Assembly: GCF_003334815.1 (NCBI RefSeq)
Contig: NZ_QOWO01000064.1
Direction: 5' to 3' (one strand)
Source: Escherichia coli
GTDB lineage: Bacteria > Pseudomonadota > Gammaproteobacteria > Enterobacterales > Enterobacteriaceae
Length of the DNA: 8,823 nucleotides
The notes under the pieces are model-generated. The model saw only the letters and a list, made by a program, of their open reading frames with translations, was not told the origin of the DNA and ran no database searches. Numbering within the stretch: position 1 is the stretch's first letter; every line of letters begins with the position of its first letter. A program made the position numbers and the translations under genes. This document shows positions 1 to 8,823 of this stretch, piece by piece.

Positions 1-46
1 AACGGTGAACAATATCACCCTGGGTAAGTATCCGGAGGCGAAATGA
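1..46 (+). CDS. 3' end of a CbtA/YeeV-family toxin gene (partial; 5' portion lies outside the window)
   Basis: The frame starting at nt 2 translates TVNNITLGKYPEAK followed by TGA at 44-46. This C-terminal tail matches what I recall for CbtA/YeeV/YkfI/YpjF-type toxins of E. coli CP4-type cryptic prophages. The stop overlaps the next start codon (ATGA at 43-46). Recognition is from memory of a 14-residue tail only. Confidence 0.5.
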   Translation, partial: TVNNITLGKYPEAK

Positions 47-534
47 TGAAACTGGCCCTGACACTGGAAGCCGACAGTGTTAACGTACAGGCACTGAATA
101 TGGGGCGAATTGTCGTTGACATTGATGGTGTTAATCTCGCTGAACTGATTAACATGGTCTGCGATAACGGCTACTCCCTTCGTGTTGTTGATGAATCTGA
201 CCGGACCTCAGCAGACTGCACGCCACCATTTGTTGCCCTTACCGGCATACGCTGCAGTACCGCACATATCACGGAAACGGACAACGCCTGGCTGTACTCG
301 CTGTCACACCAGACCAGTGACTTCGGTGAATCAGAATGGATTCATTTTACCGGTACCGGTTATCTGTTACGTACCGATGCGTGGTCATACCCGGTTCTGC
401 GGCTTAAGCGCCTGGGGCTGTCAAAAACGTTCCGTCGTCTGGTCGTCACACTCATCCGGCGTTATGGTGTCAGTCTCATTCATCTGGATGCCAGTGCCGG
501 ATATCTGCCGGGTTTACCCACTTTCGACTGGTAA
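43..534 (+). CDS. Hypothetical protein of the kind encoded immediately downstream of cbtA-family toxin genes (YeeW-like); family assignment uncertain
   Basis: 163-aa ORF in the six-frame track. Its ATG at 43 overlaps the toxin stop by 4 nt, which is typical of coupled prophage modules. The product looks like a normal mixed-composition protein and resembles proteins I recall downstream of cbtA paralogs. GC about 50-58% by hand count on two lines. Confidence 0.6.
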   Translation: MMKLALTLEADSVNVQALNMGRIVVDIDGVNLAELINMVCDNGYSLRVVDESDRTSADCTPPFVALTGIRCSTAHITETDNAWLYSLSHQTSDFGESEWIHFTGTGYLLRTDAWSYPVLRLKRLGLSKTFRRLVVTLIRRYGVSLIHLDASAGYLPGLPTFDW

Positions 535-550
535 TCCGGAAATTCACAAC

Positions 551-727
551 ATGAAATCATTAACCACGGAAACAGCGCTGGATATTCTGATTACGTGGCT
601 GCAGGACAATATCGACTGCGAATCGGGAATTATCTTCGACAACGATGAGGATAAAACAGGTTCGGCAGCACTGTTGCGCTGTATCGAACAGGCCAGGGAG
701 GGTATCCGTACCCTGCGCCAACAGTAA
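551..727 (+). CDS. Small DUF957-like protein (58 aa)
   Basis: ATG at 551, 16 nt after the preceding stop, translates MKSLTTETALDILITWLQDNIDCESGIIFDNDEDKTGSAALLRCIEQAREGIRTLRQQ and ends at TAA 725-727. It resembles the small DUF957 proteins I recall in CP4-type islands. The track ORF 182..727 is the same frame extended upstream into the 43..534 gene, and I treat that 5' part as spurious. No clear Shine-Dalgarno sequence. Confidence 0.55.
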   Translation: MKSLTTETALDILITWLQDNIDCESGIIFDNDEDKTGSAALLRCIEQAREGIRTLRQQ

Positions 728-826: not shown

Positions 827-985
827 ATGATGATGTCAGATACCACACTCTCCCGCCCGGAGGTGGTCAGCGGGCATACGGACGTTATCTATTCCACCTC
901 AGTCTGCCACATTCTGGCTGTACGAAAGAGTACACTGTTGCCAATCGACACAATTATCCGGCATCAAGTAAGCGATATCAGTTAA
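827..985 (+). CDS. Candidate small ORF (52 aa), function unknown
   Basis: ATG at 827 is preceded by AAAGGA at 818-823, a reasonable Shine-Dalgarno spacing. It translates MMMSDTTLSRPEVVSGHTDVIYSTSVCHILAVRKSTLLPIDTIIRHQVSDIS and stops at TAA 983-985. It is absent from the supplied ORF track, presumably for being below the length cut-off, and I do not recognise the family. Confidence 0.25.
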   Translation: MMMSDTTLSRPEVVSGHTDVIYSTSVCHILAVRKSTLLPIDTIIRHQVSDIS

Positions 986-1151
986 CCGATATAGATGGGG
1001 AAGATGCTTTTATCCGGATTGGTTCTATCGCGATGGTGCGAGTACCACTTGATGCAATGGAGCCTGTCGAGGAAGATGACGAGTAACAGAGCTCGGTATC
1101 TCAATCAGGACCTGATTGTCCTGGTTCGATGCCGAAAACCAGTGATTTTTC

Positions 1152-1636: not shown

Positions 1637-4528
1637 ATGATTGGTACAACACCTTATCATGCGAAATATTTTGCGCATGAACTTTCCATTCTTCATTCAA
1701 ACAATGGGGTGGACCGTCTGTCTCAATCGCTGTTTGATGCAAGCGTAGATCTAAACCCTCATCAAATTGAGGCGGCTCTTTTTGCTATCGAAAATCCGCT
1801 AAGCAAAGGTGTTGTGCTTGCCGATGAAGTTGGTTTGGGTAAAACCATTGAAGCTGGACTAGTGCTTTGCCAGTTGTGGGCTGAAAGAAAACGTAAACTG
1901 TTGATCATTTGTCCTGCTTCACTGCGTCGCCAATGGGCGAGCGAGTTACAGGAAAAGTTCAATCTACCTTCTCAGGTGTTGGACGCGAAAATGTATAGCC
2001 AGCTTCAAAAAGAAGGGATCCATAATCCCTTAAATAATAAATCGATCACTATCATGTCATACCACTATGCTGCTCGGTTAGAAGAGAAATTGGTGGCTGA
2101 AATGTGGGATCTGGTTGTTATCGACGAAGCCCATAAACTGCGTAATGCTCATCGAGAAAGCAACAAAATGGGGCAAGCGTTAAAGCGTGCGCTTGATGGG
2201 CGGAAGAAATTACTACTGACCGCAACGCCTTTACAGAACTCGTTGATGGAACTGTATGGCATGTCGACGCTTATAGATGAACATACCTTCGGCGAAGTTA
2301 AAGCGTTCAGAAAGCAATATATGCAGGCAGATAGCGATATTGCGGAGTTGAAGGGGCGATTGTCGCGTTTTATCAAACGAACTCTACGCAAGAATGTGCT
2401 GGAGTATATCAAGTATACAGAACGTAAAGCGATCACTATTCCTTTCTATCCGAGCGAACAGGAGCAGGATCTTTATGAACGCGTACAAAAATTGCTTGAA
2501 CGTGAGGATAGCTATGCCTTACCAAAACGACACCGGCATCTGACGGGGCTTATACTCAGAAAACTACTTTCCTCAAGTACGAAAGCCGTATTGAATAACT
2601 TGCAGATCCTTAAGACTCGTTTAGAAAGGTTAAAGCTGGAAGGTATCGTTGAAGATGATATGGACATCATCCAACAGATCATAATGGATGATGATCTTGA
2701 AGATGACATCGTTGAAGATGCCGAATCAGTAGCGCCAGATACAGAGTGCAAATCTGTGGATTCAGATGCGCTTCAGGCAGAAATCAATGAGCTGGAATCA
2801 CTCATTGTTAAAGCAGAACAGATTGGCACTGATACCAAATCAAAAGAGTTGCTTTCTGGCCTGGAGCAAGGTTTTGCACAGCTTGCCGAAATGGGGGCTG
2901 CAAAAAAAGTCATCATCTTCACGGAGTCGATGCGAACTCAACAGTACCTTGCACATTTTCTGGAAAACAATGGCTACCAGGGAAAAGTAGTAACCTTTAG
3001 TGGCACAAACAATACACCGCAGGCAAACAAGATCTACCAGCAATGGCGCGAGGAATATCAGGGATCTTCTCGTATTACCGGGTCGGCGCAAATTGATAAA
3101 CGCTCGGCTTTGATCGACCACTTCAAAGATCATGCTGAAATCATGATAGCTACAGAAGCTGCAGCTGAAGGGGTGAACCTGCAATTTTGTTCGCTACTGA
3201 TCAATTACGATTTACCCTGGAACCCACAACGCATTGAGCAGCGTATTGGACGTTGTCACCGATACGGGCAAAAATTTGATGTGGTTGTTATTAACTTCCT
3301 CAATCAGCGAAACCAGGCCGATCAACGCGTTCTTGAACTCTTAACTGAAAAGTTCAGCCTGTTTGATGGCGTGTTTGGCGCATCGGATAGTGTGCTTGGC
3401 AGCATAGAAAATGGTGTGGATTTTGAAAAAAGGATCCAGTCAATTTATGAGTCATGCCGTACCCCCGAGGAGATAGAGCTGGCTTTTGAAAGGTTGCAGA
3501 AAGAGCTGGAAGATGAAATCAATCTCAAGATGCAGAAGACGCAAGAACAGTTGCTTGAGCATTTTGATGAAGATATTCACGATATCCTTAAAATAAGGCT
3601 TGATGAAGCTCGGGAGCGCCTGGATAAAGTCGGTCGTTGGTTTTGGGCCGTGACCTGTCAGCAGCTCAAACAATATGCTGATTTTGATCATGAGCATCAT
3701 CGTTTCACTTTACGTGAATCAGTCAATGAACTGCCTGTCGGGCAGTACCAGCTGTTGCGCAAAGATGGCAGGCAAAATAGTGCGTTACAAATGCAGGATC
3801 ACCACAGTTTTGCATATCGGATCAATCATCCACTGGGTGAGTACGTCATTGACGGAGCTAAAGCCCAGGAGACGAAAACAGCTGAAGTCATCTTCGATTA
3901 CAGTAACCACACAACGAAAGTTTCGGTGGCTGAGCAGCTGAAAGGGCAATCAGGATGGTTAACACTAAATTTGCTTACTGTTGATGCGTTTAACAGGCAG
4001 CAATTTTTAGTCTTTACCGCGAAAACTGACAACGGACGTGTGGTAGATGGTGAAGCTTGTAAACGTCTGTTCAACTTGTCTGCAATAACCAACGAAAAGC
4101 TGGATAATTCGGCAAGTTTAGATGCATTACCTGATGACTTGATCTTACTCAAGAACAGGCAAATTGACGCCAGGCTTGCAGAAGTTTTGGAGCAGAACAA
4201 TGTCCTTTTTGAAGCGGAAAGAGATAAGCTGGAAAAATGGGCTGAAGACATGATCTTTGCGGCGGAAGAAGCATTACGCGATACCAAAATGCAAATCAAG
4301 TCGTTGAAGCGAGAAGCCAGGCTGGCGCAATCGATCGAAGAACAAAAGCAAAACCAGGAAAAGCTTAAGCTCCTGGAACGGCAGCAGAAGCGCCAACGTA
4401 TGGAAATTTTTGACATTGAAGATGAGATCGCCGACAAGCGGGATGAACTCATCAGTGCCCTTGAAGAGCGGATGAAGCAAAAGACGGATATCACCGAGCT
4501 GTTTACCATCCGCTGGAAAGTTATTTAA
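1637..4528 (+). CDS. SNF2-family (DEAH-type superfamily 2) helicase/ATPase, 963 aa; candidate DrmD-like component
   Basis: Motifs are visible in the translation: Walker A GLGKT (nt 1832-1846), motif II DEAH (2123-2134), the SNF2-type motif III TATPLQN, and in the C-terminal lobe motif V IATEAAAEGVNLQ and motif VI QRIGRCHRYGQ (3239-3271). A purine-rich Shine-Dalgarno-like stretch (AGAGAGAGAAAAG) precedes the ATG. GC about 43-47% by hand count. Confidence 0.9.
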   Translation: MIGTTPYHAKYFAHELSILHSNNGVDRLSQSLFDASVDLNPHQIEAALFAIENPLSKGVVLADEVGLGKTIEAGLVLCQLWAERKRKLLIICPASLRRQWASELQEKFNLPSQVLDAKMYSQLQKEGIHNPLNNKSITIMSYHYAARLEEKLVAEMWDLVVIDEAHKLRNAHRESNKMGQALKRALDGRKKLLLTATPLQNSLMELYGMSTLIDEHTFGEVKAFRKQYMQADSDIAELKGRLSRFIKRTLRKNVLEYIKYTERKAITIPFYPSEQEQDLYERVQKLLEREDSYALPKRHRHLTGLILRKLLSSSTKAVLNNLQILKTRLERLKLEGIVEDDMDIIQQIIMDDDLEDDIVEDAESVAPDTECKSVDSDALQAEINELESLIVKAEQIGTDTKSKELLSGLEQGFAQLAEMGAAKKVIIFTESMRTQQYLAHFLENNGYQGKVVTFSGTNNTPQANKIYQQWREEYQGSSRITGSAQIDKRSALIDHFKDHAEIMIATEAAAEGVNLQFCSLLINYDLPWNPQRIEQRIGRCHRYGQKFDVVVINFLNQRNQADQRVLELLTEKFSLFDGVFGASDSVLGSIENGVDFEKRIQSIYESCRTPEEIELAFERLQKELEDEINLKMQKTQEQLLEHFDEDIHDILKIRLDEARERLDKVGRWFWAVTCQQLKQYADFDHEHHRFTLRESVNELPVGQYQLLRKDGRQNSALQMQDHHSFAYRINHPLGEYVIDGAKAQETKTAEVIFDYSNHTTKVSVAEQLKGQSGWLTLNLLTVDAFNRQQFLVFTAKTDNGRVVDGEACKRLFNLSAITNEKLDNSASLDALPDDLILLKNRQIDARLAEVLEQNNVLFEAERDKLEKWAEDMIFAAEEALRDTKMQIKSLKREARLAQSIEEQKQNQEKLKLLERQQKRQRMEIFDIEDEIADKRDELISALEERMKQKTDITELFTIRWKVI

Positions 4529-4548: not shown

Positions 4549-7500
4549 ATGAGTAAGTACAACGAATTAGTTAAGAAGCTAAAAGAAATTTTTCAGATTG
4601 ATCGACCAGAACTGGATTTCGGTATTTATCGTATTTTAAATGCGCGTGCTGATGAAATTAACGACTATCTGGATAATAAGCTGAAGGCCAAAATCCAGTC
4701 TGCGCTGGCGGATGCAGGAAATGCCAATAAATCAGAATTAGAACATCAGTTGCAACTGACAATAAAAGCGGCAACTGATGCGGGTGTAGACCCTGCTGAT
4801 AGCCCAAAAGTACAGGAGCTTAAAAAGCAACTGGCGGCTATGGCATCCGGAGCAAATGAGCATGAAAATGCAGTATTTTCCCATCTGCTCACTTTCTTTT
4901 CGCGTTATTATGACAACGGCGATTTTATCAGCAAACGCCGTTATAAAGGTAATACCTACGCCATCCCCTATTCTGGCGAAGAAGTGATGTTGCACTGGGC
5001 AAATAAGGACCAGTACTACATTAAAAGCGGTGAAAACTTCGCTAATTATTCGTTCAAATTAGAAGACGGTCGTAAAGTTAGCTTTAAATTGCTCGCAGCG
5101 GACACAGCAAAAGATAACCGTAAAGATAATGAATTAGATCGCTGCTTTGTACTTATTGAGCCACATGTTCGTACCAAAATTGATGAAGAAGGCGATGAGT
5201 ACGAACAAGAATATAAGCCAGTAGAAGTGGTGAAAAACTCATCTGTGGTGGACGGTAAACTCGTTGAAACAGAAGAGTTAGTTATTCACTTCGAATATAA
5301 GGCAATGAAAAAGGGCACTAAGCAGGATGCTTTAGTACAGTCCGCCATTTCAACAATTCTGGCAGATAAAACAGTTCAACAGCATTGGGTTGATCTTGCT
5401 AAACGTGCGCCAACAGAAAAGAATCCGTCACGTACAGAGTTGGAGCGTCACCTTACAACTTATACCCAGCGTAATACAGCAGACTACTTTATCCATAAAG
5501 ATCTCGGTGGTTTTTTAACGAACGAACTGGATTTTTATATTAAAAATGAAGTAATGAATCTCGATAATGTGCAAAATGCAGAAGTGTTTGCCAATGTTGA
5601 GAAACAATTGCGCATGATTCAATGTTTGCGTGCTGTTGCGCTGGAACTCATTACATTTTTGGCACAAATTGAGAATTTCCAGAAAAAACTTTGGACTAAG
5701 AAGAAGTTTGTTGTTGGGCATGAGTATCTTGTGTCACTTTCAAATCTATCAGATTCGCTTTACGATAAAATTCGAACTAATAAAGGGCAACATGATGAAT
5801 GGGTTGAGCTTTATGCTGTAAATAAAATTCCTGGATATTCATTTCCATTCACAAAAGATTTCTTGTATAAAAATAATGGTATGATATTGGATACAAAATA
5901 TTTTGATCCGTCATTTAAGGAGGTTTTTTTAACAGAGTTAACTAATGTTGACGATAATTTAGATGGTCTCTTAATTAATTCAGATAATTATCAGGCCATT
6001 AATTTTTTGGAGGGGCGGTATAAGGACTCAATAGACTGTCTTTATATTGATCCTCCGTATAATACTGCGGCTTCAGAAATTTTATATAAAAATGAATATA
6101 AGCACAGCAGCTGGAATTCATTAATGTATGAAAGGATATCTAAAAGCTATAATTTACTGAAAATTTCTGCAATTAATTTTACCGCGATAGATCATGCGGA
6201 ATTATATAATCTTGGTAAGATCAAGGATGAAATCTATGGAGAACAAAACAGGATAGCAGTTGTTACTGTTCAGCATAATCCTAAAGGGCGTAACCAGGCA
6301 AAGTTCTTTTCTGAAAATACTGAGTATATGTTAGTATATGCTAAAGATTTTAATGCTGCTAACTTTAACTCTGTAGCTATCGATGAGGATGTGCTTTTAA
6401 CATTCACAGAACAAGATAATATAGGCCGTTATCGTTGGGAAAACTTTATTCGTGCAAGAACAAGTTGGTCCAGAGCAAATAGACCAAATAACTGGTATCC
6501 TTTATACGTCTCTTCCGACTTAAAATCAATTTCTGTTGATTATGTAGATGGGTATATCGAAGTATATCCTACAACTAAACAGGGGGATTTTTCGTGGAAA
6601 AATATTAAAGAATCATTTGTTGAATTAAATAAAGATAATTATTTTAAAGCTGTAAATGAAAATGGAGAAATAAAAATCTATCATAAATATAGGGAGCAGC
6701 AAGTCTTTAAAAATCTTTGGATTGATAAGAAATATCAGTCTGAGTTTAATGGTACAAATTTACTGAAAAACATACTTGGACAATCACTATTTGATTATCC
6801 GAAATCATTATATGCAGTACAAGATGCAATCAAAATGTCGACACCACACAATGGTATTGTATTGGACTATTTTGCAGGTTCAGGGACAACTTCTCATGCA
6901 GTAATAAACCTTAATAATTCAGATAATCTCTGTATGAAATTTATCAATGTTGAAATGGGTACTCATTTCAATACAGTAGTTATTCCAAGATTGAAGAAAA
7001 TTGGATATTCAAACTTATGGAAACAATGTAAACCAATCGGTAAACCTCAAAAAATGACTATCAAGTATTTGAAACTTGAAAGTTATGAGGATGCTCTTAA
7101 TAATATACAATTACGAAGTTATTCATTGCATCAGGATATTTTCGACATTTTGGTGGAAGATGTAAAATCAGAGTTTGCTCTTAAATATATTTTTGAAAAT
7201 GAATTATTTTATTCACTATTAAATACTGATAATTTCAAAAAACCATTTAACTACGAAATGGATATTGCGACGGATTCCGCCGGTGCCACTGAGCGTAAAA
7301 ACATCGATTTAGTTGAAACTTTCAATTATCTCATTGGCTTACATGTGAAATCCATCGAATCTGATATCGCACGTGGCTATGTGCGTATTGAAGGAACGCT
7401 GCCAACAGGCGAGCGTACCCTTATTCTGTGGCGCGATTGCGACAAGATCGGTTATGAAGAATTGAATAAATATGCCAACCGATTTGATTTGTATGCAAAA

Positions 7501-7653
7501 GAAAACACGTTCGACGTTATCTACATCAATGGCGATCATAACTTACCTACCGCCTTTACCGTTGATGAAGAAGACGGCGAGATTGTTCGTAGCCTGAAAA
7601 TTCGCCAGATCGAACCTGAATTCTTGAACCTGATGTTTGCGGAGGAGGTTTAA
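4549..7653 (+). CDS. Beta-class DNA methyltransferase (N6-adenine/N4-cytosine type, Type III Mod-like catalytic core) with a ~420-aa N-terminal extension, 1034 aa; candidate DrmMI-like component
   Basis: Motif IV DPPY (CLYIDPPYN, nt 6049-6060) precedes motif I FxGxG (LDYFAGSGTT, nt 6865-6891) by about 270 residues, which is the beta-class order with room for a target-recognition domain between them. I place the start at ATG 4549, preceded by AAAGAG; the track starts at an in-frame TTG at 4534, which remains a possible alternative. Only 20 nt separate it from the upstream stop. Confidence 0.88.
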   Translation: MSKYNELVKKLKEIFQIDRPELDFGIYRILNARADEINDYLDNKLKAKIQSALADAGNANKSELEHQLQLTIKAATDAGVDPADSPKVQELKKQLAAMASGANEHENAVFSHLLTFFSRYYDNGDFISKRRYKGNTYAIPYSGEEVMLHWANKDQYYIKSGENFANYSFKLEDGRKVSFKLLAADTAKDNRKDNELDRCFVLIEPHVRTKIDEEGDEYEQEYKPVEVVKNSSVVDGKLVETEELVIHFEYKAMKKGTKQDALVQSAISTILADKTVQQHWVDLAKRAPTEKNPSRTELERHLTTYTQRNTADYFIHKDLGGFLTNELDFYIKNEVMNLDNVQNAEVFANVEKQLRMIQCLRAVALELITFLAQIENFQKKLWTKKKFVVGHEYLVSLSNLSDSLYDKIRTNKGQHDEWVELYAVNKIPGYSFPFTKDFLYKNNGMILDTKYFDPSFKEVFLTELTNVDDNLDGLLINSDNYQAINFLEGRYKDSIDCLYIDPPYNTAASEILYKNEYKHSSWNSLMYERISKSYNLLKISAINFTAIDHAELYNLGKIKDEIYGEQNRIAVVTVQHNPKGRNQAKFFSENTEYMLVYAKDFNAANFNSVAIDEDVLLTFTEQDNIGRYRWENFIRARTSWSRANRPNNWYPLYVSSDLKSISVDYVDGYIEVYPTTKQGDFSWKNIKESFVELNKDNYFKAVNENGEIKIYHKYREQQVFKNLWIDKKYQSEFNGTNLLKNILGQSLFDYPKSLYAVQDAIKMSTPHNGIVLDYFAGSGTTSHAVINLNNSDNLCMKFINVEMGTHFNTVVIPRLKKIGYSNLWKQCKPIGKPQKMTIKYLKLESYEDALNNIQLRSYSLHQDIFDILVEDVKSEFALKYIFENELFYSLLNTDNFKKPFNYEMDIATDSAGATERKNIDLVETFNYLIGLHVKSIESDIARGYVRIEGTLPTGERTLILWRDCDKIGYEELNKYANRFDLYAKENTFDVIYINGDHNLPTAFTVDEEDGEIVRSLKIRQIEPEFLNLMFAEEV
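7641..7648 (+). promoter_or_regulatory. Shine-Dalgarno sequence GGAGGAGG for the third gene, embedded in the last codons of the methyltransferase gene
   Basis: GGAGGAGG lies 7 nt upstream of ATG 7656. The methyltransferase stop (7651-7653) and the next start are 2 nt apart, which suggests translational coupling. Confidence 0.6.
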
Positions 7654-7655
7654 GA

Positions 7656-8669
7656 ATGGCTAAAAAACCGACCACCGGTAAAGCAGTTAAAAAAGAGACT
7701 AACAGCAAGCTGAGCTTTCATAAACAACTGGTTTTAAACCGCTTTATGTTCCATTTTTTCAAAGATGGCACATTGCAAGGTTTGAAGAATCGGTTAGGCG
7801 AGGATCGCTTTGAAGGCATCCATGAAGATGGCCAAAGCTTGTTCTTCCATGAGCTGAGTAACTATTTATTCGAGGTCGATCTAATCGATCTCGATGAACT
7901 GCGTCGTTACGATCTCAATATCGTGCAGCACTGGCAGCAGATAACCGAGCACCGTAATCGTAAAGAAGACACTGTGCTGAACATGAAATATTTTCAGTAC
8001 TTGTCGCTTCTGTTTACCGAGATCTACCTGGACTGGTACTTCAATCGTAAACAGCAATTACTCGATGGGCTAAATAACGAGCTGGCAGCATACAATGCTG
8101 AAAATGATAAAACAGCAAAAGACCGGGCTAATCAGTTCAAATCATATGTTCTGGATGATTTGAATAAATTGGCATACTGGAACGCTACTGGTTCTGGTAA
8201 GACACTGCTATTACATGTCAATATTTTGCAATATTTACATTATTTCCAGAACGGTAATAGCCATCATTATCCGGATAAAATCATCCTGCTTACGCCGGAT
8301 GAACGCCTGTCGAAGCAACATTTAGATGAACTGGAAAACTCAGGGTTTACCCAATACCAGTTGTTCGATAAGAGTAAATCAGCGCCCTTCAAAGGCACGA
8401 TTGAAGTCATTGATATCAATAAACTTGATGATAAAATGGGCGACAAAACTGTTGCCGTTGAGGCATTTGAAGGCAACAATCTGGTCCTGATTGATGAAGG
8501 GCATAAAGGCACAGGAAGTGCTGCTGGTGCCTGGATGCGCCGTCGTGACAAGTTAACTCGTGACGGATTTGCGTTTGAATATTCAGCAACTTTTGGCCAG
8601 GCAGTAGCCGGTGGCAATAATGTGGAGGCAGTTGAAACAGAAATTCAGAAGAAAAAAGCAAAGCTCTGA
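7656..8669 (+). CDS. Helicase-like ATPase containing only the first RecA-like lobe (Type III Res-like / DrmA-like N-terminal region), 337 aa; probably truncated or disrupted
   Basis: Walker A ATGSGKT (nt 8184-8204; GSGKT at 8190-8204), motif II LIDEGH (DEGH at 8493-8504) and a motif III-like SAT (8583-8591) are present. The ORF stops at 8667-8669 with no motifs IV-VI and no arginine-finger region. The following 8670-8732 has stops in all three forward frames. Confidence 0.75.
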   Translation: MAKKPTTGKAVKKETNSKLSFHKQLVLNRFMFHFFKDGTLQGLKNRLGEDRFEGIHEDGQSLFFHELSNYLFEVDLIDLDELRRYDLNIVQHWQQITEHRNRKEDTVLNMKYFQYLSLLFTEIYLDWYFNRKQQLLDGLNNELAAYNAENDKTAKDRANQFKSYVLDDLNKLAYWNATGSGKTLLLHVNILQYLHYFQNGNSHHYPDKIILLTPDERLSKQHLDELENSGFTQYQLFDKSKSAPFKGTIEVIDINKLDDKMGDKTVAVEAFEGNNLVLIDEGHKGTGSAAGAWMRRRDKLTRDGFAFEYSATFGQAVAGGNNVEAVETEIQKKKAKL

Positions 8670-8823
8670 GAGATCCCCTCATAATTTCCCCAAAGCGTAA
8701 CCATGTGTGAATAAATTTTGAGCTAGTAGGGTTGCAGCCACGAGTAAGTCTTCCCTTGTTATTGTGTAGCCAGAATGCCGCAAAACTTCCATGCCTAAGC
8801 GAACTGTTGAGAGTACGTTTCGA

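What the first reader, a model, noticed from the sequence alone, without database searches (positions are those of the whole stretch)
4184..4528. Highly charged, coiled-coil-like C-terminal tail on the SNF2 protein
The last 110 or so residues (…EAERDKLEKWAEDMIFAAEEALRDTKMQIKSLKREARLAQSIEEQKQNQEKLKLLERQQKRQRMEIFDIEDEIADKRDELISALEERMKQK…) are dominated by E, K, R and Q with a heptad-like pattern and lie well beyond helicase motif VI. This suggests an oligomerisation or partner-binding module rather than part of the ATPase core.
Basis: seen in the sequence. Interest (0 to 1): 0.3.

Follow-up and report, generated by a model that had tools for sequence, protein, structure and literature searches.

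The report
Coiled-coil arm on a restriction-linked SNF2 motor
The charged end of this E. coli SNF2 helicase is a conserved, fixed-length two-helix coiled-coil hairpin projecting from a small C-terminal domain; it marks a widespread family of SNF2 motors encoded just upstream of Type III-like restriction-modification genes, and it probably couples the motor to those enzymes.

Summary
Residues 850-963 of the 963-aa SNF2 protein are the most charged stretch of the protein and lie in its longest Pro/Gly-free run (aa 833-963). AlphaFold2 predicts two long helices (833-895 and 900-946) joined by a 4-residue turn. A terminal beta-strand (949-962) then returns to a beta-rich domain (686-832). [quoted passage not shown]

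The module occurs only at the C-terminus of about 950-aa bacterial SNF2 helicases. These are almost always followed by a Type III-like Mod methyltransferase and a Res-like helicase.

The topology matches the C-terminal domain described for RapA and BrxHII, but no sequence similarity is detectable. Function is inferred: most likely a docking or coupling arm to Mod-Res, with an intramolecular role or dimerisation as rivals. The tail alone is of modest interest. The unnamed SNF2-Mod-Res system is the more interesting finding.

The parts
1637..4528 (+). SNF2-family helicase gene (963 aa). RefSeq WP_000580532.1, 'SNF2-related protein'.
   Evidence: ORF list. 100% identical to E. coli FDAARGOS_536 and present in 152 of 5426 complete E. 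coli genomes. Pfam SNF2-rel_dom aa 42-289 and Helicase_C aa 437-544.
1727..3316 (+). SNF2 ATPase core (aa 31-560).
   Evidence: Pfam. PADLOC and NCBIfam DrmD-like matches cover aa 31 to 671-684 only. Mean top-residue frequency is 0.76-0.79 in the RecA lobes.
3464..3664 (+). Second pair of long helices (aa 610-641 and 645-676), charged, between the core and the C-terminal module.
   Evidence: Full-length AF2 secondary structure. Charged fraction 0.52 for windows 601-680. This region still aligns to DrmD profiles.
3692..4132 (+). Beta-rich part of the C-terminal alpha+beta module (aa 686-832). It is the base from which the hairpin emerges.
   Evidence: AF2 with 72 sequences gives pLDDT 88.3, with strands at aa 689-692, 702-706, 725-727, 749-754, 772-783, 787-797 and 815-819. 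It is the least conserved part of the protein (0.52) and rich in indels.
4133..4321 (+). Hairpin helix A (aa 833-895).
   Evidence: AF2 in two independent runs, block pLDDT 90-97 (isolated module) and 79-91 (full length). Alignment-averaged hydrophobic period 3.6, p = 0.009.
4229..4249 (+). L-E-K-W-A-E-D motif (aa 865-871). W868 and D871 are the only hairpin residues (with L913) that stay invariant down to 20% identity.
   Evidence: W868 99% and D871 98% conserved in 268 non-redundant homologues. Both are invariant in the distant plasmid homologues (A4).
4322..4333 (+). Four-residue turn at the hairpin tip (aa 896-899, LAQS).
   Evidence: AF2. Pro/Gly appear in homologues mainly at aa 898 and 905. 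The heptad phase breaks here.
4334..4474 (+). Hairpin helix B (aa 900-946), with an unbroken 3-4 hydrophobic spacing: 906, 910, 913, 917, 920, 924, 927, 931, 934/5, 938, 942, 946.
   Evidence: AF2 block pLDDT 95-97 (isolated module), 81-91 (full length). Periodicity p = 0.003. Covarying pairs with helix A have i+j of about 1800, for example Q886-K909, I873-E928, E877-R921 and T883-Q920.
4481..4522 (+). Terminal beta-strand (aa 949-962; motif L955, F956, W960) that returns to the beta-rich domain.
   Evidence: AF2. L955, F956 and W960 are invariant even in distant homologues. Covariation with the beta domain: L779-T953, E750-K961, D798-R959.
4549..7653 (+). Type III-like Mod methyltransferase (1034 aa), starting 20 nt after the SNF2 stop codon.
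   Evidence: RefSeq annotation. Pfam N6_N4_Mtase. PADLOC MTase_III PDLC03646, full length. Related to EcoP15I Mod, PDB 4zcf, E = 3e-25.
7656..8823 (+). Start of the Res-like DEAD/DEAH helicase (1126 aa in full; cut by the end of the window).
   Evidence: RefSeq annotation of the full gene in L001. PADLOC REase_III PDLC03654. Pfam ResIII.

Best explanation
Structure (well supported): the last 131 residues of the SNF2 protein form an intramolecular antiparallel two-helix coiled coil. Helix A is aa 833-895, a 4-residue turn follows, and helix B is aa 900-946. The paired part is about 47 residues, roughly 70 Å. The arm projects from a beta-rich C-terminal domain (aa 686-832) and is closed by a terminal beta-strand (aa 949-962) that rejoins that domain. 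It is a rigid, fixed-length arm outside the ATPase core.

Function (inferred): the arm, through its conserved mid-arm patch (L865, W868, A869, D871 on helix A, facing I924, F925, D929, I931 on helix B), docks the SNF2 double-stranded-DNA translocase onto the Type III-like Mod-Res complex encoded immediately downstream, or transmits a signal to it. ATP-driven translocation would thereby be coupled to site recognition, methylation and cleavage. Shown: sequence, predicted fold, conservation, fixed length, distribution and synteny. Inferred: the binding partner and the coupling role.

For: Functional constraint: the hairpin's conservation (0.69) is close to that of the ATPase lobes (0.76-0.79) and well above the adjacent beta domain (0.52). 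Only 3 of 268 sequences have deletions and 4 of 346 have insertions in aa 850-946, against 248 of 346 with insertions in the beta domain. W868 and D871 are invariant down to 20% identity. Net charge is -0.7 ± 2.8, so it is not a basic DNA-binding arm.

Link to Mod-Res: 518 species-level genomes encode the module. Of the 80 loci kept, 77 have a Mod homologue immediately downstream of the SNF2 gene (L015 has only a partial Mod-like hit about 3 kb away; L022 and L065 end at the contig edge), and a Res homologue follows wherever the contig extends far enough. The SNF2-Mod gap is under 200 bp or an overlap in 62 of 78 loci. Homologues with only 24-37% identity in the module still sit in HTH-SNF2-(inserts)-Mod-Res cassettes on plasmids of Salmonella, Deinococcus, Paracoccus, Aeromonas and Cupriavidus. 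Among SNF2 segments, the hairpin shows the highest distance correlation with Mod and Res, although it is weak (rho 0.26-0.30; partial r given the core 0.21-0.30). The DrmD profiles of DISARM stop matching at aa 671-684, so the C-terminal module is what distinguishes this family from its closest named relative, which works with other partners. In the full-length model the linkers between core and module (aa 572-596, 638-644) have low confidence.
Against: No complex was predicted or measured; the structure tool returns neither coordinates nor PAE. The SNF2 phylogeny is largely uncoupled from that of Mod-Res: rho is 0.12-0.31, against 0.87 between the Mod N-terminus and Res. The Mod partner varies from about 560 to 1046 aa, so no single conserved receptor surface was identified. 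The topologically similar C-terminal domain of RapA is not reported as the main RNA-polymerase contact; it lines an intramolecular cleft with the NTD and domain 1A (PMC8501970). W868 falls on a core-type heptad position, so it may be partly structural. The long Mod-Res pair also occurs without this SNF2, in Priestia and haloarchaea.
Confidence: 0.45

Rival explanations
1. Intramolecular regulatory or DNA-guiding element. The arm packs against the protein's own ATPase lobes or lines a DNA-binding cleft, gating or bracing the motor. This would resemble the auxiliary domains of other Swi2/Snf2 enzymes and the C-terminal domain of RapA.
For: The same topology is reported in RapA and BrxHII (PMC12839542). 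RapA's CTD forms a cleft with the NTD and domain 1A rather than the main partner contact (PMC8501970). The full-length AF2 pTM of 0.68 for 963 aa suggests a partly defined overall arrangement. The SNF2 gene evolves largely independently of Mod-Res. A fixed length would suit a brace that spans a defined intramolecular distance.
Against: Net charge is about zero, so the arm is not suited to bind DNA by itself. The linkers between core and module have low confidence. The module evolves much faster than the core in distant homologues (24-37% against 46-67% identity), which is unexpected for a surface that must fit a highly conserved core. This protein has no RapA-like N-terminal domain; only about 30 residues precede the core.
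Confidence: 0.25
2. Homo-oligomerisation. Two hairpins from two SNF2 molecules pack into a four-helix bundle, giving a dimeric motor, for example one motor per Res or per DNA direction.
Against: There is no direct test. The strongest covariation signals are explained by intramolecular pairing. AF2 folds the monomer confidently without a partner. The charged fraction of 0.42 leaves little exposed apolar surface.
Confidence: 0.15
3. No specific function: a low-complexity charged spacer or chance feature.
For: Charged helical segments are common, and automatic JGI names for fragments (Zn-ribbon protein, exonuclease VII large subunit, OmpH) show that the region attracts generic coiled-coil annotations.
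Against: Invariant residues, near-absolute length conservation across phyla and retention in 2563 representative clusters argue against this.
Confidence: 0.03

Closest known systems
[quoted passage not shown] 2008)
   Same: The position is the same: the extreme C-terminus of a bacterial Swi2/Snf2 helicase of about 940-970 aa. [quoted passage not shown] RapA is also the closest solved relative of the ATPase core. Read by eye, the E. coli RapA C-terminus has the same order of long helix, turn, helix and terminal hydrophobic strand (inference).
   Different: No sequence similarity is detectable: hhalign of the family profile against RapA gives probability 0.6%, and the BrxHII and DrmD profiles stop at aa 629-684. 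Foldseek gives only a non-significant match to RapA (4s20_K, E = 0.73, TM 0.25). There is no N-terminal Tudor domain here. The hairpin is longer (63+47 residues), fixed in length, and carries the W-x-x-D motif. The partners are Type III-like Mod and Res, not RNA polymerase or BREX proteins.
DISARM class 1 DrmD (NCBIfam NF038318 DrmD_b; PADLOC PDLC02619)
   Same: It gives the best profile match for the ATPase core and the first post-core helices (aa 31 to 671-684; E = 4e-199 to 4e-200). Both are SNF2 motors encoded next to a large adenine methyltransferase in defence islands.
   Different: The score of 667 bits is below the curated cut-off of 950, and the last 200 or so profile positions do not align. 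There are no DrmA, DrmB (DUF1998) or DrmC neighbours. The partners are a PF01555 Mod and a ResIII helicase. The related ARMADA system uses a PglX-like methyltransferase and a YprA helicase.
Type III restriction-modification enzymes (EcoP15I Mod2Res)
   Same: The downstream genes are a Mod related to EcoP15I Mod and a ResIII-type helicase, in Mod-Res order.
   Different: Classical Type III systems have two genes. Here a third gene, an SNF2 motor with the coiled-coil arm, and often a small HTH gene precede Mod-Res. In this E. coli subtype Mod and Res are much larger (1034 and 1126 aa) than in EcoP15I.
Coiled-coil arms that couple subunits in other ATP-dependent or multi-subunit enzymes (Type I HsdS/HsdM helices, PI3K p85 iSH2, SMC/Rad50 arms, CT398/HP0958)

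Membership tests
Swi2/Snf2 helicases | SNF2-related N-terminal lobe plus Helicase_C lobe with motifs I-VI | tested here: met
   Pfam SNF2-rel_dom E = 1.3e-36 (aa 42-289) and Helicase_C E = 2.7e-19 (aa 437-544). PDB relatives are RapA, ISWI, Chd1 and others.
Coiled coil (antiparallel two-helix hairpin) | Two long helices with heptad (3.5-3.6 residue) hydrophobic periodicity | tested here: met
   AF2 helices 833-895 and 900-946. Alignment-averaged periodicity p = 0.009 and p = 0.003. A dedicated predictor such as Marcoil or DeepCoil was not available.
Coiled coil (antiparallel two-helix hairpin) | The two helices pack against each other in antiparallel register | tested here: met
Coiled coil as oligomerisation or partner-binding module | Intermolecular contact made by the helices | not testable with these tools
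   The structure tool predicts single chains and returns no PAE or coordinates. Only indirect evidence is available.
RapA/BrxHII-type C-terminal alpha+beta domain | [quoted passage not shown] | tested here: met
   The order of secondary-structure elements in both AF2 models is strands at aa 772-783, 787-797 and 815-819, then the hairpin, then strand 949-962. This was compared with the published description. It is a topology match only.
RapA/BrxHII-type C-terminal alpha+beta domain | Detectable sequence or significant structural similarity to the RapA C-terminal domain | tested here: not met
   hhalign of A3 against E. coli RapA gives probability 0.6%. A PDB profile search finds nothing. Foldseek to 4s20_K gives E = 0.73 and TM 0.25. 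PADLOC BrxHII matches end at aa 629-654.
DISARM DrmD | Full-length match above the curated NCBIfam cut-off | tested here: not met
   NF038318 scores 667 bits against a cut-off of 950 and aligns only aa 31-671. NF038317 scores 292 against a cut-off of 610.
DISARM DrmD | Operon partners DrmA, DrmB (DUF1998) and DrmC | tested here: not met
   The neighbours are MTase_III and REase_III (PADLOC). Pfam finds only ResIII/DEAD in the third protein. Synteny across 80 loci shows SNF2-Mod-Res.
Type III restriction-modification system (system level) | Mod of the N6_N4 (beta-class) methyltransferase type plus a Res with an SF2 ResIII helicase | tested here: met
   The nuclease domain of Res, the recognition site and cleavage were not tested.

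The most novel reading that the evidence does not exclude
The fixed-length coiled-coil arm with its invariant W-x-x-D patch is the dedicated adaptor that plugs an SNF2 DNA translocase into Type III(-like) Mod-Res enzymes. This would define a widespread, so far unnamed four-gene defence cassette (small HTH, SNF2, Mod, Res). The module is present in at least 518 species-level genomes, on conjugative plasmids and in 152 complete E. coli genomes. In such a system, restriction would be driven or licensed by a chromatin-remodeller-type motor rather than by Res alone.
Probability: 0.35. Interest if true: 0.55.

Novelty: new variant of a known kind. Interest (0 to 1): 0.3.

Why it matters
The tail on its own is a modest structural feature. 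Its value is as a diagnostic signature. The C-terminal module (beta domain plus 110-residue hairpin plus closing strand) separates a large family of bacterial SNF2 helicases from DISARM DrmD, BREX BrxHII and RapA, and it tracks almost perfectly with Type III-like Mod-Res genes.

If the arm is the physical link between the SNF2 motor and Mod-Res, there would be a class of restriction systems with two different SF2 motors. That raises a testable question: what does a remodeller-type translocase add to a Type III enzyme? Possibilities include clearing proteins from DNA, long-range communication, or discriminating replicating phage DNA.

The analysis also provides precise point mutants (W868A, D871A) and a clean deletion (aa 850-946) for such tests.

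Tried and rejected
- Sequence searches of the C-terminal module against PDB (profile) and Pfam (whole protein) found nothing beyond the helicase core.
- hhalign of the family profile against E. coli RapA and against the Priestia helicase found upstream of a related Mod-Res showed no similarity.
- I prepared 61 paired SNF2 C-terminus + linker + Mod N-terminus fusion sequences to test docking with AF2, then dropped the idea. The tool returns no PAE or coordinates. Distant family members also pair with short Mods that lack the 440-aa N-terminal extension, so that region cannot be the universal receptor.
- The mirror-tree analysis gave only a weak hairpin-Mod/Res signal, and I do not treat it as proof.
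- Mean-field DCA with Meff 212 is noisy. Nine of the top 20 helix A-helix B pairs lie within ±8 of the expected antiparallel diagonal. By my own rough estimate (not computed) about a quarter would do so by chance, so this is supportive only.
- P0138 (1480 aa) was checked as a possible SNF2-Mod fusion, but its extra 500 aa match neither Mod nor Res.
- Literature searches for the three RefSeq accessions and for an SNF2 plus Type III R-M association found no description of this cassette. The library is incomplete, so absence is not proof.
- DNA binding by the arm was considered and judged unlikely because its net charge is about zero.
Full report
**Observation.** The protein is a Swi2/Snf2 helicase: Pfam SNF2-rel_dom covers aa 42-289 and Helicase_C covers aa 437-544. 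The tail therefore lies about 300 residues past motif VI.
- E, K, R, Q and D make up 53% of the last 114 residues, against 36% for the whole protein.
- The most charged 114-residue window of the protein starts at aa 836-838, and only 1% of shuffles of the protein reach the tail's value anywhere.
- Residues 833-963 are the longest Pro/Gly-free run in the protein, at 131 residues against 55 for the next longest.
- A heptad signal is marginal in the single sequence. It is clear in the hydrophobicity averaged over 72 homologues: p = 0.009 for aa 852-898 and p = 0.003 for aa 900-948. The two halves are out of phase with each other.

It should be extended to start at aa 833 (window 4133).

**Anatomy.** AlphaFold2 on aa 686-963 with a 72-sequence alignment gave pLDDT 88.3 and pTM 0.71. 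The model has four parts:
- a beta-rich domain (aa 686-832);
- helix A (aa 833-895), then a 4-residue turn (aa 896-899);
- helix B (aa 900-946), with block pLDDT 95-97 over most of the paired helices;
- a terminal strand (aa 949-962).

The full-length model (pLDDT 77.8, pTM 0.68) reproduces the same elements. It also shows a second pair of long helices (aa 610-641 and 645-676), and low-confidence linkers at aa 572-596 and 638-644.

Mean-field DCA on 268 non-redundant homologues (Meff 212) is noisy but agrees with the model. The strongest helix A-helix B pairs lie on the antiparallel diagonal (Q886-K909, I873-E928, E877-R921, T883-Q920). The terminal strand and the end of helix B covary with the beta domain (L779-T953, E750-K961, D798-R959, F785-M946).

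[quoted passage not shown] It is not a free end.

**Conservation and distribution.** The C-terminal 323 residues have hundreds of full-coverage homologues at 42-75% identity. A profile of aa 686-963 finds 2563 representative clusters at E ≤ 1e-3, of which 417 are at E ≤ 1e-30. In complete proteins the module is nearly always at the C-terminus of a helicase of about 950 aa. AFDB50 Foldseek finds the same module only in bacterial SNF2 helicases, down to 23-30% identity, including Porphyromonas, Clostridium, Moraxella and Campylobacterales.

Within the family:
- The hairpin's mean top-residue frequency is 0.69. That is nearly as high as the RecA lobes (0.76-0.79) and far above the neighbouring beta domain (0.52).
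- Its length is almost invariant. Only 3 of 268 sequences have deletions and 4 of 346 have insertions in aa 850-946, against 248 of 346 with insertions in the beta domain.
- Its net charge is about zero (-0.7 ± 2.8), with 42% charged residues.
- In plasmid homologues sharing only 20-37% identity, the surviving invariants are W868 and D871 (motif L-[ED]-x-W-x-[ED]-D), L913, and the terminal L955, F956 and W960.

**Context.** The window is part of a CP4-like island of E. coli. It is 100% identical to strain FDAARGOS_536, and the SNF2 gene is present in 152 of 5426 complete genomes. The SNF2 gene is followed 20 nt later by a 1034-aa methyltransferase. This has a Pfam N6_N4_Mtase domain, a full-length PADLOC MTase_III match, and similarity to EcoP15I Mod at E = 3e-25. 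A 1126-aa ResIII/DEAD helicase follows (PADLOC REase_III).

A scan of one genome per species found 518 loci encoding the module. Of the 80 kept, 77 have a Mod homologue immediately downstream of the SNF2 gene: L015 has only a partial Mod-like hit about 3 kb away, and L022 and L065 end at the contig edge. A Res homologue follows wherever the contig extends far enough. The SNF2-Mod gap is under 200 bp or an overlap in 62 of 78 loci. In 16 loci, 0.4-2.2 kb is inserted.

Distant members on plasmids of Salmonella, Deinococcus, Paracoccus, Aeromonas, Cupriavidus and Klebsiella/E. coli show the same cassette. It is usually preceded by a small HTH gene, sometimes carries Abi, AIPR, VapC or AAA+DUF4276 genes inserted, and has Mods of 560-1046 aa and Res proteins of 910-1126 aa. 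The related long Mod-Res pair can also occur with a different upstream ATPase, in Priestia and haloarchaea.

**Mechanism.** The structural statement is well supported. The functional one is inference.

My preferred reading, at roughly 0.4-0.45, is that the arm docks or couples the SNF2 translocase to Mod-Res. The reasons are:
- The C-terminal module is what distinguishes this family from DISARM DrmD, whose profiles stop matching at aa 671-684.
- The module co-occurs with Mod-Res across phyla.
- It has a fixed length and an invariant mid-arm patch.
- It is not basic.
- It is joined to the core by low-confidence linkers.
- Among SNF2 segments it shows the highest correlation of evolutionary distances with Mod and Res, although the signal is weak (rho 0.26-0.30; partial r 0.21-0.30).

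Several points count against it:
- The SNF2 phylogeny is largely uncoupled from Mod-Res, whereas the Mod N-terminus and Res correlate at rho 0.87.
- The partner Mod varies greatly in size.
- No complex could be modelled.
- RapA's topologically similar C-terminal domain lines an intramolecular cleft rather than forming the main partner contact (PMC8501970).

The rivals are an intramolecular brace or regulator (about 0.25), homodimerisation through a four-helix bundle (about 0.15), and no specific function (about 0.03, contradicted by conservation).

[quoted passage not shown] The topology here matches. However, sequence similarity to RapA is undetectable and the Foldseek match to RapA is not significant. 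I therefore claim likeness of architecture, not proven homology.

The protein is not DrmD. It scores below the curated cut-off, its C-terminus does not align, and the DrmA/B/C partners are absent. It is not ARMADA ArmA either, because ARMADA pairs its SNF2 with a PglX-like methyltransferase and a YprA helicase.

At system level it is a Type III-like R-M pair with an added SNF2 motor. I found no paper describing this cassette in the searchable library.

**Verdict.** The finding is real and conserved, but structurally ordinary: a coiled-coil hairpin arm on an SF2 motor, with a published topological precedent. I rate it a new variant of a known kind, with interest about 0.3. The more interesting lead is the unnamed and widespread HTH-SNF2-Mod-Res cassette, for which this arm is the signature and the likely coupling element.

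Noticed in passing
window 973-1086 and 1087-1636: RefSeq annotates only a remnant of a helix-turn-helix regulator here (L001 11337-11450). About 550 bp of unannotated sequence follow before the SNF2 start. In distant homologous cassettes an intact small HTH gene (66-81 aa) directly precedes or overlaps the SNF2 start, like a controller (C) protein of R-M systems.
   Followed up: partly
window 3464-3664 (SNF2 aa 610-676): There is a second pair of long, highly charged helices (aa 610-641 and 645-676) between the ATPase core and the C-terminal module. Unlike the terminal hairpin, this region is still covered by DrmD profiles.
   Followed up: partly
window 4549-5868 (Mod aa 1-440) and Res gene from 7656: The N-terminal 440 aa of Mod, upstream of the catalytic domain, include its best conserved stretches (aa 121-210 and 301-420). 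Their evolutionary distances track those of Res very closely (rho 0.87), while the SNF2 gene is nearly uncoupled. This suggests that the Mod N-terminus is the Res-binding platform and that SNF2 is an exchangeable module. Res falls into two deep types: 59-84% and 32-41% identity to the E. coli protein.
   Followed up: partly
loci L004, L011, L038, L052, L054, L058, L075, L077, L078 and others; plasmid loci L082, L083, L085: In 16 of 78 loci, 0.4-2.2 kb is inserted between SNF2 and Mod. On plasmids the inserted genes are other defence or toxin genes: an Abi family protein, AIPR, a VapC toxin-antitoxin pair, and an AAA ATPase plus DUF4276.
   Followed up: partly
L089 (Priestia megaterium plasmid) and L090 (Haloprofundus plasmid): Homologues of the long Mod-Res pair occur behind a different upstream ATPase. 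In Priestia this is a 981-aa 'ATP-dependent DNA helicase' whose C-terminus is unrelated to the module. In haloarchaea it is a 568-aa AAA ATPase. The motor in front of Mod-Res therefore appears to be swappable.
   Followed up: partly
Res aa 654-754 (beyond the window; L001 19979-20281): A piece of Res about 100 aa long (72% identity) is found on well over 100 enterobacterial plasmids, where it is annotated as a 'DUF1158 domain-containing protein' or left unannotated. It looks like a widespread gene remnant.
   Followed up: no
proteins P0146, P0253, P0138: Some SNF2 homologues with the same C-terminal module carry extra domains. P0146 has an N-terminal extension of about 390 aa with a D...DLK motif that looks PD-(D/E)xK-like by eye. 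P0253 has an N-terminal HTH plus a region resembling a histidine-kinase-type ATPase. P0138 has about 500 residues after the module that match neither Mod nor Res.
   Followed up: partly
window 43-727 and L001 flanks: The operon sits in a CP4-like island. Upstream are YeeU/CbtA toxin-antitoxin, DUF5983 (window 43-534) and DUF957 genes, an antirestriction protein and Ag43. Downstream are fragments of a phosphorothioate-dependent restriction enzyme and an HNH nuclease, next to nanM/nanC. This is a typical defence-island setting.
   Followed up: no
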